Notes under the pieces: model-generated
Told to the model about the DNA's origin: nothing
Seen by the model: the letters and a program-made list of their open reading frames with translations, nothing else
Database searches by the model: none
Shown here: one piece after another, positions 22,560 through 62,788 of the stretch
Numbering within the stretch: position 1 is the first letter of the stretch
How the letters are laid out: each line of letters opens with the position of its first letter
Assembly (NCBI RefSeq): GCF_006345805.1
Contig: NC_043003.1
Span: 14,322,001-14,386,000, forward strand
Direction of reading: 5' to 3'
Source: Octopus sinensis
Taxonomy: Eukaryota
Length of the DNA: 64,000 nt
Translations under genes and position numbers: made by a program

Positions 22560-22955
22560 CTTTTATTCTTTTACTTGTTTCAGTCATTTGACTGTGGCCA
22601 TGCTGGAGCACCAACTTTAGTTGAGCAAATCAACCCCAGGACTTATTCTTTGTAAGCCTAGTACTTATTCTATCACTCTCCGTATGTACGGGGATGTGCA
22701 TGCACCAATATTGGTTGTCAAGTGATGTTGGTGGGGACAACCACAGACACACAAACACAAAAACACACACACACACACACACACACATATAAGATGAGCT
22801 TCTTTCAGTTTCCGTCTACCAAATCCCCTCACAAGGCTTTGGTCAGCCTGAGGCTATAGTAGAAGATACTTGCCCAAAGTGTCAAGTAGTGTGACTGAAC
22901 CCGGAACCATGTGGCTGGTAAGCAAGCTTCTTACCACACAGCCACTCTTGTGCCT
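22560..22955 (-). mobile_element. SINE family A
   Basis: Reverse-complement match to the consensus seen in the window. Confidence 0.85.
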
Positions 22956-23001
22956 TCTATAAATATATATATATATATATATAATATATATATATACACA
23001 T

Positions 23002-23032
<31 letters not shown>

Positions 23033-23125
23033 CACATATACATACATACATATATATATATTATATATATATATATATATATACATACATATATATATAA
23101 ATATATATATGTATATATATATATA

Positions 23126-23171
<46 letters not shown>

Positions 23172-23173
<2 letters not shown>

Positions 23174-23696
23174 ATAGAAATATTAAAATTACTAAGTCTC
23201 TCTAAAAGAGAACACGGCAGCGTTCCTGGAAATTAATAGTTATCGCCATACTAATATGGCATTCTTATAAAAATAAGAATAAAGCTGTCCGCTTATTAGC
23301 TCTATGAGGCCATCACCTTAAGTTAGGTATTTGATACACAAACTGTATCCATATAACCTTCGAACAAGGGAGACTTAGTAATTTTAATATTTCTATTATT
23401 GAAAACAAGTGGATGTATTCCACCGAAACTAGGTAAATAAAACCTTGGAACAGAGATAGTCGGAAGCGACACCTACTGGTCTGACTACGCTACATTGACA
23501 AGGAGCAATACCCCGAAACGCGTCTGTAGCTGTCGATCAAGTAGTGTGGAGCGACTGACCTCCCTTGTTCGAAGGTTATATGGATACAGTTTGTGTATCA
23601 AATAGCTAACTTAAGGCGATGGCCTCATGGAGCTAATAAGCGGACAGCTTTATTCTTATTTTTATAAGAATGCCATATTAGTATGGCGATAACTAT
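23172..23696. mobile_element. Fold-back, circularly permuted hammerhead element in (TA)n
   Basis: gctacaTTGACAAggag..ccccGAAACGCGTCtgtagc at 23489-23530; inverted arm 23172-23372. Confidence 0.75.
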
Positions 23697-25610
23697 ATAT
23701 ATATGTATATGTATATATATGTGTGTTTGTGTCTCCTAGTTGTGGTGGTCGTTGTCGGTCATTACCAGTGGCACATAAAAAGCACCATTCAAGCGTGGTT
23801 GATCCCAGTACCAGCTGACTGGCTCCTGTGCTGGTGGCGCGTAAAAAGCACCCACTACACTCTCTAAGAGTGGTTGGAAGGGCATCCAGCTGTAGAAACC
23901 TTGCCAGATCAGACTGGAGCGTGGTACAGCGTTCTGGCTTGCCAGTCCTCAGTGAAACCATCCAACCCATGCCAGCATGGAAAACAGACACCAAACGATG
24001 ATGACAATGATGATGATGATTGTAACTGTCATACAACACTGTTGTACATTTCCAATATTCTGTGTGAACGTATCTGGCCACAGGAGAATGTTACCACAGG
24101 AAAGGCTTCGCAACAGGATGGGCATCCAACAATAGAAAATGTGCTTCAGTTATCTCTATTTAACCCATGCAATCATGGAAATGTGGATATTAAATGATGA
24201 TGATGATGATGATGATGATGATCATGTATTAAATGTGTGTTGACTCAGAACTGAAGTTGAGGTTCTCAATTATGGCCCCATATGATCCCATATGGGGGTT
24301 CATATAAGATTTTGTGGGTCCATGCAAGTAAAATATAGGAAAATTTGAAGCCTACTATATTTTATTAACACTTTAACGTTTAGACTGGTCCATCCAACCC
24401 ATGCCAGCATGGAAAACGGACGTTAAATCATGATGATGATAAAAGCAGATGTTAAAGAATGATGATGACAATGATGACGATGCCAATGCCGCTGCCGCCA
24501 CTGACGCTGCTGATGCTGACACCAACAATGCTGACACTGCCAACACCCCTGCGCCGCCACTGCCGCAGACCCCACCGACGCTGACGCTGCAGACGCTGAC
24601 AACGCTGACACTGCCGGCACTGCCAACGCCAACGCTGCTGACGCCGCCAATGCCGACTTCGCTGACAACTCCAACGCCGCTGCTGCTGACAACTCCTACG
24701 CCGATGACTCCGATGCCAATGACGTCAATGACACCAACGCCAACAACGACGACAACGAAAGTGGATGTTAACGGGGGATGATGTCCAGCCAAAATATTCA
24801 GCCTGTTTTATACTCAAAACGGCTAGATCCAGACTCTCACACTTCCATTACAATGTCGCTGTAAAAATAAACAAAGATATCGTCAAAATCCTGAGGCTAT
24901 GAAATAATGCACGATTAATTTGAAACAAAATGGAAAAAAAAAATAAGGATCACATTTGACAGAGTAACTTGAATGCTAAAGGGTTAGGGGCCCAAGGAAA
25001 AGGTCTGCTTTAGATGTATTTATTGCAAAAAACAGCTAAGTTTCTTTCTCAAATAGTTTAACCTACACAGGTTAATGTGTCAATAACAAAACAGGAATTT
25101 TGAAAGATGTATCTATGAAACTAGTTTTAAAGATTGAATGACTAAGGTGGGAGTCCACCAGGTGAAAATAGTAATCAAAGGGGCCCATAGATAAAAAATG
25201 GTTGGGAACCAGTGATTTAAACAATAACTCATCTACAGGGTCTTCAGTTATCCTTAGTCTCATCTCGTTTTATTTGGAAGTGAAACTCCCACATAAAAAA
25301 CTAGCTGACTCTTGTTATTATACGAAAGAGGAAATAATTTGTAACATAGAAAAAAGAGATGAGTCACTAACCAGTTTTATGGATGATGTGGAACCCCCGA
25401 CCAAGCTATGGAAACAGTGGAATGGATTTAGGGCTACAGAAGTTAAGTGATGAGCCTGCAAATAGTGGAAAATGGGTAGCAAGAAGCAAGTGTGATGGAA
25501 CTACATGGGAAGCCAGATATGGTGTGTATATCACGAGAGGTGATGCTTGATAAATGAAGTCGTCGTTGTCGTCGTCGTCATCATCATTATCTTCCTCCTC
25601 CTCCTCCTCC

Positions 25611-45580: not shown

Positions 45581-45600
45581 TATATATATATATATATATA

Positions 45601-45833
45601 TAATCATCATCATCATCGTTAAGGTAGGCACTGCTTACCTTGACTGCCTAGGCAGCATGTCCCTGATATATATATATATACGTTTTATTTACTATTTTGC
45701 ACATTACTTAATCATCAGTATATTTTATATTTAATATTTCTATTATATGTAATTTTCTAGATGATGTATTTAATTGTTCATTTTGAATTGATAAAAGGTG
45801 TTTTTTTTCTAATTTATATATATATATATATAG

Positions 45834-45870
<37 letters not shown>

Positions 45871-46135
45871 AATCATCATCATCATCGTTAAGGTAGGCAC
45901 TGCTTACCTTGACTGCCTAGGCAGCATGTCCCTGATATATATATATATACGTTTTATTTACTATTTTGCACATTACTTAATCATCAGTATATTTTATATT
46001 TAATATTTCTATTATATGTAATTTTCTAGATGATGTAATTTAATTGTTCATTTTGAATTGATAAAAGGTTGTTTTTTTCTAATTTATATATATAATATAT
46101 ATATATCTATATATAGATATATATATATATATTAT
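45601..46135. repeat. ~270-bp direct tandem duplication
   Basis: 45602-45815 repeated at 45871-46088. Confidence 0.85.
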
Positions 46136-62485: not shown

Positions 62486-62788
62486 CATGGGAGTTGTGGC
62501 ATGCTCCGGTAATCCTGCCACTCGGAGGCTTCGTAGGGTGGCCAGTTTGAGATTGAGAGTCCTGGTAGCCAGTCTTCTATTGTGATTGGGTGTCCGTGCT
62601 AAGCTCTGCATCGATATAGTGCTGGAAAGGGAGCTTATCAGGACCAAGTTGTCTAAGGAGGGTTGCTTCAGCCCAGGGCAGAAATGCAGCAAGCAAAAGA
62701 CTCTGTGTCAAGCAGTCGTGGGATCGCACTTGTGAATAGTTGTCGATTGGCAGTCTGTTTGATACAACTGAACACCAATCTAATTTTT
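62486..62788 (+). ncRNA. RN7SL: 7SL (SRP) RNA gene or pseudogene, full length
   Basis: Collinear with metazoan 7SL: GTGGC..GTAATCC..ACTCGGAGGCT, GGGTGTCCG..CTAAG, GCATCGATATAGTG, CTAAGGAGGG, CCCAGG-GCA-GAAA-TGC-AGCA, GTGGGATCGC..TGTGAATAG; about 296 nt then TTTTT. Confidence 0.88.

What the first reader, a model, noticed from the sequence alone, without database searches (positions are those of the whole stretch)
23172..23696. Circularly permuted fold-back implying a ~365-nt multimeric or circular template
Seen: read in sense, the inverted left arm runs from the END of the right arm through a ~37-nt linker into the START of the right arm (GAGACTTAGTAATTTTAATATTTCTATTA). The two arms therefore close a circle containing one hammerhead, with GAG microhomology at the junction. 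Inference: twin priming on a head-to-tail or circular RNA, as expected for retrozymes.
Basis: partly seen in the sequence, partly recalled or inferred. Interest (0 to 1): 0.75.

Follow-up and report, generated by a model that had tools for sequence, protein, structure and literature searches.

The report
Fold-back insertion of a hammerhead retrozyme
This is one copy of a 361-base non-coding repeat with a hammerhead-like motif, lying as an inverted piece joined to a direct piece inside a TA microsatellite; this shape likely arose when both cut DNA ends primed copying of a longer-than-unit RNA by the enzyme of a Penelope-like retroelement, so it is a new example of a known kind.

Summary
Window 23172-23372, read in reverse, is the end of the right arm (137 nt, 98%), then a 36-nt linker, then the start of the right arm (28 nt, 100%), with GAG shared at the joint.

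The repeat unit is 361-362 nt. The genome holds about 1,850-2,650 first-look candidates for each of two subfamilies, including head-to-tail arrays.

I mapped 67 independent insertions. All 49 fold-backs have the sense 3' ends pointing outwards. The outer ends sit at two fixed sites, unit ~29 and unit ~328, which are 62 nt apart. These ends mostly abut (TA)n. The inner ends vary and join by 1-9 nt of microhomology. Many arms exceed one unit.

This matches the published insertion signature of Penelope-like elements (PLEs): both target strands primed, two internal start sites, a "tail" at one end, and AT-rich targets.

The hammerhead is real but non-canonical, with U3-A8 in place of C3-G8. No Rfam model matches it. 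Compensatory changes support its helices, and an intact 780-aa RT/GIY-YIG PLE in the same genome carries the same variant.

Circle versus linear multimer is unresolved, and no RNA data were available. Verdict: a new member of a known kind (animal non-LTR retrozyme, a non-autonomous PLE derivative).

The parts
22950..23171 (.). Left flank: (TA)n/(TACA)n/(TG)n microsatellite, the likely target. 23156-23170 is one copy of a candidate 15-nt target-site duplication.
   Evidence: Sequence; shared string TATATATATATGTAT at both borders. Tentative, because it lies in a microsatellite.
23172..23199 (-). Outer end of the inverted arm: unit 28->1, ending at priming site B (..TTTCTATTA).
   Evidence: 100% match to unit 1-28; site B is the outer end in most mapped insertions.
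23200..23235 (-). 36-nt linker (unit ~326-361), absent from the right arm. Together with unit 1-29 it forms the 62-nt 'tail' between sites A and B.
   Evidence: the same linker joins units in natural tandem arrays.
23236..23372 (-). Rest of the inverted arm: unit 326->190.
   Evidence: 137 nt, 98% to 23560-23696; all 3 mismatches are private to the left arm.
23370..23372 (.). Fold-back joint with GAG microhomology (fits unit 189-191 reversed, or unit 361-2).
   Evidence: Sequence. 25 of 33 family-1 joints overlap by 1-9 nt.
23371..23696 (+). Direct arm: unit 1->325/326, ending at priming site A (..GGCGATAACTAT).
   Evidence: 99% to other copies.
23489..23530 (+). Type-I hammerhead-like motif: helix I GCTACA/TGTAGC, core TTGACAA (U3, A8), helix II GGAG..CCCC (family GGGG), GAAA, 2-bp helix III within the palindrome ACGCGT. 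Predicted cut at 23524|23525. It is the only copy at this locus.
   Evidence: Descriptor search with 0/2000 shuffles; covariation; palindromic helix III in 12/13; no Rfam match.
23697..23733 (.). Right flank (TA)n/(TATG)n/(TG)n. 23694-23708 is the second copy of the candidate 15-nt duplication.

Best explanation
The segment is a fold-back insertion of a 361-nt non-coding repeat that carries a U3-A8 hammerhead-like motif, and it was likely made when the two cut strands of a (TA)n target each primed reverse transcription of a longer-than-unit RNA by the enzyme of a Penelope-like element (PLE). Shown: the anatomy of the locus; the family-wide rule that both sense 3' ends face outwards at two fixed sites (A at unit ~328, B at unit ~29); variable inner ends joined by microhomology; arms longer than one unit; head-to-tail arrays; TA-rich flanks at primed ends; and target duplications where flanks are unique. 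Inferred: one target 3'-OH started cDNA at site B (the left arm, which therefore carries the 62-nt tail) and the other started at site A (the right arm). Both cDNAs ran towards the RNA 5' end. One cDNA then switched template at a GAG microhomology onto the other, which joined the arms head to head. Also inferred: the template was most likely a linear multimer transcribed from a tandem array, because this type of hammerhead needs two copies to fold. A monomeric circle copied round and round is not excluded. The window copy has one hammerhead with a weakened helix II, so it is predicted to be a dead-end copy.
For: Family 1 is the window's family (111 scored matches, 1851 first-look candidates, 97-100% identity). 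I mapped 39 independent insertions: 33 fold-backs and 6 simple copies. All 33 fold-backs are '<>' (3' ends out) and none is '><'. Their outer-end pairs are A+B in 28, A+A in 1, B+B in 0 and other in 4 (P 5e-8 against independent choice). 57 of 72 sense-3' ends abut TA-rich flanks, against 1 of 6 outer 5' ends. The sites stay put in (AAT)n/(ATT)n targets (L014, L034) and in unique flanks (L016, L023, L028, L032). 43 of 72 arms exceed 361 nt, and one array holds 6.6 units (L023). Joints overlap by 1-9 nt in 25 of 33. Target duplications of 9-12 nt are seen at L023, L028, L032 and L033.

Family 2 (83% identical) served as a replication: 28 insertions, and all 16 of 16 fold-backs are '<>'. Their outer-end pairs are A+B in 11, B+B in 3 and other in 2.

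The blocks around sites A and B are the best conserved between the two families.

Hammerhead: covariation on 13 diverse sequences gives 85% of cells paired, against 58% after shuffling (0/500 shuffles as high) and 32-44% when slid. 10 of 12 pairs show changes on both sides.

The same genome holds PLEs with RVT_1 plus a C-terminal GIY-YIG domain and open frames of 780-781 aa. They carry a U3-A8 hammerhead. They end next to (TA)n in two forms about 38-40 nt apart.

Literature. PMC11167929 (main text read): a PLE protein cuts and extends both target strands, prefers AT-rich DNA, and starts at two internal RNA sites whose interval is the 'tail'; a multi-copy RNA is the proposed template. PMC8557442 (passages): PLE insertions are partial tandems with an adjacent inverted 5'-truncated copy, and a tail often at one end only. 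PMC4209133 (passages): U3-A8 hammerheads occur in PLEs. Preprint 10.64898/2026.07.22.740005 (abstract and passages): animal retrozymes derive from PLEs.
Against: No RNA evidence. No listed run is on record as RNA, and only contigs could be laid.

No nucleotide similarity was found between the unit and the 33 PLE loci sampled, apart from the shape of the hammerhead. The mobilising element is therefore inferred, not identified.

No Rfam model matches the hammerhead. Rfam also missed the other PLE candidates, so there was no positive control.

The cluster of 5' ends at the predicted cut (8 of 72 at unit 152-157, expected 1.2) was not repeated in family 2 (0 of 44; ends at 144, 150 and 151 lie near). 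Other hot spots exist (190-208, 352-359, 272-288).

Both samples are the best full-length hits to a query. That favours long arms, and in family 2 it forces a B-ended arm.

The A+B rule is weaker in family 2 (11 of 14, P 0.03).

Divergence within an insertion (median 1.1-1.4%) against between loci (1.95%) does not separate a circle from a multimer.

The joint at this locus was not checked in independent reads, because the tool was unreachable.
Confidence: 0.8

Rival explanations
1. One target-primed cDNA folded back on itself (self-primed second strand, 'snap-back') and made the inverted arm. No second priming event on the other target strand took place.
For: A few joints are symmetric: L017 157/157, L006 322/322, L014 136/132, and L093 195/195 with both ends at site B.
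Against: Snap-back predicts equal inner ends and the same outer site on both arms. The window joint is 190/359. Most joints are asymmetric, and 39 of the 43 fold-backs with both outer ends at site A or B (49 in all) pair site A with site B.
Confidence: 0.07
2. The template was a monomeric circular RNA (hammerhead-cut and ligated) copied round and round, not a linear multimeric transcript.
For: Arms pass through the unit joint and reach several units at new loci. The monomer folds very stably, MFE -118.8 against -83.7 kcal/mol for shuffles, z -6.3, as viroid-like circles do. One run gave a 392-nt contig that spans more than one unit. The circle model is in print for PLEs and retrozymes (PMC4209133 and PMC7229834 passages).
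Against: Tandem arrays in the DNA give the same joints, so nothing seen here needs a circle. The 2-bp palindromic helix III implies that cutting needs two copies. PLE in vitro work found the uncut multi-copy RNA to be the main substrate (PMC11167929). No RNA data.
Confidence: 0.3
3. A DNA-level event or artefact produced the structure: inversion or hairpin repair within a satellite array at a fragile (TA)n tract, or a palindromic mis-assembly of long reads.
For: (TA)n tracts form hairpins. The joint at this locus was not verified in independent reads (the tool was unreachable).
Against: Forty-nine dispersed loci share the same polarity rule and the same two outer sites but have different inner joints. 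Unique-flank copies have 9-12-nt target duplications. A missed-adapter artefact would be a perfect palindrome about one point, whereas here the arms meet at unit 190 and unit 359.
Confidence: 0.04
4. A LINE (L1/RTE-type) enzyme, not a PLE, mobilised the repeat by classical twin priming.
For: The inverted 5' part plus direct 3' part joined by microhomology is the shape of L1 twin priming (recalled; paper not read here).
Against: There is no poly(A) or LINE-type 3' tail. There are two fixed internal start sites with a tail at one end. The targets are (TA)n. The U3-A8 hammerhead is shared with the PLEs of this genome, and those PLEs also show two termini next to (TA)n.
Confidence: 0.06

Closest known systems
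Animal non-LTR retrozymes (small tandem repeats with type-I hammerheads; PMC7229834, preprint 10.64898/2026.07.22.740005)
   Same: The unit is 361 nt, non-coding and arranged head to tail. It has one type-I hammerhead per unit with a 6-bp helix I, a 4-bp helix II and a 1-2-bp palindromic helix III. Copies are dispersed and recent. A PLE link is inferred.
   Different: The core is U3-A8, not C3-G8, and no Rfam model matches it. Circular RNA was not shown. The papers I searched do not mention fold-back insertions, two fixed 3' ends or microsatellite targets for retrozymes (term search of PMC7229834: 0 hits for 'inverted', 'microsatellite', 'target site').
Penelope-like element insertion architecture (PMC8557442) and the PAc in vitro mechanism (PMC11167929)
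   Same: Shared features are 5' truncation, partial tandems, an adjacent inverted 5'-truncated copy, a tail at one end, AT-rich or (TA)n targets, both strands primed, two internal start sites and a hammerhead.
   Different: There is no RT/GIY-YIG ORF, so the element is non-autonomous. The tail is 62 nt rather than 30-40 nt. No sequence similarity to the sampled PLEs of the genome was found.
U3-A8 minimal hammerheads of Schistosoma Cercyon PLEs (PMC4209133)
   Same: It shows the same core covariation, a short helix III, and probable action as a dimer.
   Different: The host phylum and sequence differ. Here helix I has 6 bp and helix II 4 bp, as in canonical metazoan type-I motifs.
L1 twin priming (recalled, not read here)
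   Same: Two target 3' ends prime on one RNA. The 5' part is inverted and the arms join by microhomology.
   Different: Priming occurs at two fixed internal sites, not at poly(A) plus a random internal site. The template is repetitive, so the arms overlap by permutation.
Plant LTR retrozymes (PMC4918200, abstract only)
   Same: They are non-autonomous and hammerhead-bearing, with a circular RNA intermediate proposed.
   Different: The plant elements have type-III hammerheads in LTRs and depend on Ty3/Gypsy enzymes. None of that is seen here.

Membership tests
Animal non-LTR retrozyme | Type-I hammerhead in every repeat unit | tested here: met
   One motif per 361-nt unit, kept in 13 diverse sequences with compensatory pairs. 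It is the U3-A8 variant and matches no Rfam model.
Animal non-LTR retrozyme | Short (about 170-400 nt) non-coding units in head-to-tail tandem | tested here: met
   Period 361/362 nt; arrays of up to 6.6 units; longest ORF 55 aa.
Animal non-LTR retrozyme | Transcribed, self-cleaved and circularised RNA | not testable with these tools
   No run on record as RNA, and contigs only. 5' ends at the predicted cut are enriched in family 1 (8/72) but not in family 2 (0/44).
PLE-type insertion (non-autonomous PLE derivative) | Partial tandem plus adjacent inverted 5'-truncated copy | tested here: met
   49 of 67 mapped insertions are fold-backs, and all have their 3' ends outwards.
PLE-type insertion (non-autonomous PLE derivative) | Two alternative 3' termini with a 'tail' usually at one end only | tested here: met
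   Sites A (~328) and B (~29) lie 62 nt apart. A+B pairing occurs in 28 of 33 and 11 of 16 fold-backs.
PLE-type insertion (non-autonomous PLE derivative) | AT-rich or microsatellite target with target-site duplication | tested here: met
   57/72 and 35/44 primed ends lie next to TA-rich flanks. Duplications of 9-12 nt occur at four unique-flank loci.
PLE-type insertion (non-autonomous PLE derivative) | Sequence shared with an autonomous PLE (3' end or pLTR) | tested here: not met
   No blastn similarity to 33 PLE loci. Only the U3-A8 hammerhead type, the (TA)n target and the two-termini habit are shared. The sample is 30 of 5029 first-look candidates, so a partner may have been missed.
Autonomous PLE | RT plus GIY-YIG ORF | tested here: not met
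   The unit has no ORF above 55 aa, and no Pfam hit was found in the 12 of 33 window ORFs (130 aa or longer) that were scanned.
Rfam Hammerhead families (RF00163, RF00008 and relatives) | Score at or above the family threshold | tested here: not met
   No hammerhead family is listed even at E<=10.
L1-type twin-primed insertion | 3' poly(A) tail at the direct arm | tested here: not met
   Direct arms end at ..AACTAT(TAAT) or ..CTATTAT next to (TA)n, and none ends in poly(A).

The most novel reading that the evidence does not exclude
Each fold-back is a natural record of one coordinated integration event. In that event a dimeric PLE ribonucleoprotein nicks both strands of a palindromic (TA)n target and starts cDNA at two different fixed RNA sites, one per strand (A on one, B on the other). 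If so, thousands of retrozyme insertions in this genome give an in vivo read-out of a step so far seen only in vitro, and they explain why PLE tails sit at one end only.
Probability: 0.35. Interest if true: 0.65.

Novelty: new member of a known kind. Interest (0 to 1): 0.45.

Why it matters
How PLEs and their small hammerhead-bearing passengers integrate is still poorly understood. Their tandem and inverted copies and one-sided tails were only recently tied to in vitro findings: extension of both strands and two internal start sites.

This family is young (96-99% identity), abundant and short, so whole insertion events can be read end to end. The strict '3' ends out' polarity and the strong A+B pairing are direct genomic support for dual-strand target priming on a more-than-unit RNA. 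They suggest that the two start sites are used in a coordinated way.

The family also adds a mollusc-type genome to the hosts of U3-A8 hammerheads, and shows that Rfam-based scans miss them.

For annotation, such fold-backs in TA microsatellites should be read as single retroelement insertions. They are not satellites, miRNA-like hairpins or assembly errors.

Tried and rejected
Rfam. The whole window at gathering scores gave only Metazoa_SRP. Searches at E<=10 on 661 nt, on 71 nt and on intact family copies gave no ribozyme family. Rfam also listed no hammerhead in three PLE loci that hold candidates found by my descriptor, so I had no positive control.

RNA evidence. No RNA holder is listed. 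Contigs of four runs were laid and cannot show ends, strand or circles.

Independent check of the window joint. The second read-laying request did not complete ten times, so the joint was not checked.

Mobilising PLE by sequence. I compared the unit, and separately the tail module, with 30 GIY-YIG loci and 3 full PLE copies. The only hit was an adjacent, probably unrelated family-2 copy beside L062.

Window matches at 45730 and 45999 (17 nt) are an AT-rich local duplication and are unrelated.

The 12 of 33 window ORFs (130 aa or longer) that I scanned gave no RT or endonuclease.

Hammerhead-cut signal in 5' ends. It is significant in family 1 but not repeated in family 2, so I do not use it as proof of cleavage.

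Divergence within an insertion against between loci, as a circle-versus-multimer test, was not decisive, and the segments were partly redundant.

Earlier findings of this scan: none.

Literature searches for a description of this family found none: 'retrozyme/hammerhead/octopus' and 'octopus/Penelope/cephalopod'. PMC13282606 has 0 hits for 'hammerhead'. My impression that it is a cephalopod is recall only.

Full report
**1. The observation**

The region holds a long inverted repeat: 23236-23372 against 23560-23696, 137 nt, 98%. Reading 23172-23372 in reverse gives three parts:
- the last 137 nt of the right arm;
- about 36 nt that the right arm lacks (23200-23235);
- the first 28-32 nt of the right arm (23172-23199 = unit 1-28, 100%).

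GAG at 23370-23372 belongs to either arm. The two arms therefore describe one circularly permuted sequence of 361-362 nt.

Both sides are TA/TG microsatellite. A 15-nt string is repeated at both borders (23156-23170 and 23694-23708), which may be a target duplication.

**2. The family**

The window lies in a 2.72-Gb metazoan genome (a Metazoa_SRP gene lies at 62488-62779). No tool names the organism.

The 326-nt right arm has 111 scored matches at 97-100% identity among 1851 first-look candidates. Natural head-to-tail arrays have periods of 361 and 362 nt and use the same linker. A natural trimer from one array (L023) served as the coordinate system.

**3. Architecture of 39 independent family-1 insertions**

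These come from loci L001-L044. I dropped second views of the same array (L005, L018, L024, L012, L025, L026), counted the duplicated copy in L013 once, and handled L045 separately.

- 33 are fold-backs and 6 are simple copies.
- All 33 fold-backs have the inverted arm first and the direct arm second, so both sense 3' ends point outwards. None has the opposite polarity.
- Outer ends fall at two sites: A, unit 323-334 (..GGCGATAACTAT(TAAT)), and B, unit 22-33 (..TTTCTATTAT).
- Pairs are A+B in 28, A+A in 1, B+B in 0 and other in 4 (P 5e-8 against independent choice).
- The sites hold in (AAT)n/(ATT)n targets (L014, L034) and in unique flanks (L016, L023, L028, L032), so they belong to the RNA and not to TA homology.
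- 57 of 72 primed ends, but only 1 of 6 outer 5' ends, abut TA-rich DNA.
- Inner ends vary, and 25 of 33 joints overlap by 1-9 nt.
- 43 of 72 arms exceed one unit (maximum 2299 nt). The sample was chosen as best full-length hits, which favours long arms.
- Target duplications of 9-12 nt are visible at L023, L028, L032 and L033.

**4. Replication in family 2**

An 83%-identical subfamily has 2659 first-look candidates. It gave 28 insertions from L082-L110, with L103 dropped as a duplicate of L102.

- 16 fold-backs, all with 3' ends out, and 12 simple copies.
- Pairs are A+B in 11, B+B in 3 and other in 2.
- The query ended at site B, so every insertion has a B arm by selection. Its partner is A in 11 of 14 (P 0.03).
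- Between the two subfamilies, the blocks around sites A and B are almost invariant while the rest diverges.
- A third, shorter relative shares only that module and is itself a fold-back in (TA)n (L045 1376-1506).

**5. The hammerhead**

No Rfam family matches. Rfam also missed the other PLE candidates.

A descriptor search finds one motif per unit. It reads GCUACA-UUGACAA-GGGG CAAUA CCCC-GAAA-C GC G-UC|UGUAGC, and 0 of 2000 shuffled monomers gave such a motif. Every core position is canonical except C3->U and G8->A, which keep the 3-8 pair.

A core-only pattern then found the same variant in PLE loci that had been fetched independently through their GIY-YIG domain. I aligned 13 diverse sequences out of the 42 distinct hits, dropping near-identical variants. 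Results:
- 85% of cells pair, against 58% after shuffling (0/500 as high) and 32-44% when slid;
- 10 of 12 pairs change on both sides;
- the two helix III pairs were fixed by the pattern and carry no weight.

The hexamer forming helix III and its loop is a palindrome in 12 of 13 sequences (ACGCGT, ACATGT, ACCGGT), as expected for hammerheads that act as dimers (PMC4209133, passages). The two family-1 sub-variants differ at N7, the one free core position.

U3-A8 hammerheads are already known from Schistosoma PLEs (PMC4209133).

The window copy has a single hammerhead with GGAG in place of GGGG in helix II.

**6. Was the RNA cut there?**

Family-1 5' ends cluster at unit 152-157 (8 of 72, expected 1.2, P 3e-5; the site had been noted before mapping). 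Family 2 shows 0 of 44 there.

Other hot spots exist:
- 190-208, seen in both families (13/72 and 10/44);
- 352-359, in family 1;
- 272-288, in family 2.

The 190-208 spot coincides with a 12-bp long-range helix in the predicted fold. I treat in vivo cleavage as open.

The monomer RNA is predicted to fold very stably (-118.8 against -83.7 kcal/mol, z -6.3).

**7. The likely enzyme**

GIY-YIG matches are abundant: 149 scored matches, 5029 first-look candidates, and at least six open frames of 780-781 aa. [quoted passage not shown]

These PLEs carry the U3-A8 hammerhead about 570-880 nt after the stop codon. They end about 72 nt after its predicted cut, next to (TA)n, in 5 of 6 aligned copies.

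Across the 30 loci the 3' end comes in two forms about 38-40 nt apart: 9 short and about 5 long. That is a tail with two termini, parallel to sites A and B.

No nucleotide similarity to the unit was found, so the partner is inferred.

**8. Comparison with print**

- PMC11167929 (main text read): a purified PLE protein cuts and extends both target strands, prefers AT-rich DNA and starts at two adjacent internal RNA sites whose interval is the genomic tail. It probably uses a multi-copy RNA, and the hammerhead is dispensable in vitro.
- PMC8557442 (passages): PLE insertions are tandem/inverted with a tail at one end; one clade has a (TA)n bias.
- Preprint 10.64898/2026.07.22.740005 (abstract and passages): animal retrozymes are PLE derivatives.
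- PMC7229834 (term search only): no mention of inverted copies, target sites or microsatellites.

The window element is therefore a new member of a known kind. What may be new in detail is the near-obligate pairing of the two start sites, one per strand.

**9. Mechanism and limits**

Two target-primed cDNAs, one from B and one from A, joined at a microhomology explain every feature of the locus.

Snap-back, DNA-level inversion or mis-assembly, and LINE twin priming fit worse (see the rival explanations).

Circle against linear multimer is unresolved. No RNA data and no independent read check of the joint were available.

Noticed in passing
window 62488-62779 (+): A full-length Metazoa_SRP RNA gene (134.9 bits, E 2.5e-34). 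It is the only Rfam match in the window at gathering score.
   Followed up: no
window 23740-24010, 24100-24440; L078 2790-3060 and 6790-7060: A common SINE-like repeat (..CCATGCTGGCATGGGTTGGA.. with a CATCAT/GATGAT tail) flanks the finding and also turns up beside PLE copies. In L078 it mimicked a pair of pseudo-LTRs.
   Followed up: partly
L078 3752-6091; L079 2220-4562; L080 2371-4713 (and the places listed): A PLE family with open frames of 780-781 aa (RVT_1 plus C-terminal GIY-YIG) and a U3-A8 hammerhead. It has two alternative 3' ends about 38-40 nt apart next to (TA)n, and it looks recently active.
   Followed up: partly
L045 1376-1506: A mini fold-back of about 130 nt from a third related family. 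It shares only the site-A/tail/site-B module (78% identity) and also lies inside (TA)n.
   Followed up: partly
L013 1333-1891 and 2753-3311: Two identical fold-back copies lie 1420 nt apart, so a local segmental duplication carried the insertion along.
   Followed up: no
window 45590-46110: A roughly 269-nt local tandem duplication bounded by TA microsatellites. Its 17-nt match to the unit's site-B end seems to be chance in AT-rich sequence.
   Followed up: partly
window 24440-24720: A GC-rich imperfect repeat with a 15-nt period (GCTGAC/GCCAAC-type) next to the finding. Its nature is unknown.
   Followed up: no
window 23105-23173 and TA tracts in L049, L059: TA/TG microsatellites give sub-threshold 'mir-297/mir-1277/mir-3149' Rfam hits (35-45 bits against cut-offs of 81-100). 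These are low-complexity false leads.
   Followed up: yes
L015 1633-2022 (run X9): A single 392-nt contig covers more than one unit. Its length is about one unit plus roughly one assembly word (assumed to be ~31 nt), as a cyclic or tandem assembly graph would give. The family is also held by runs labelled as six other organisms.
   Followed up: no
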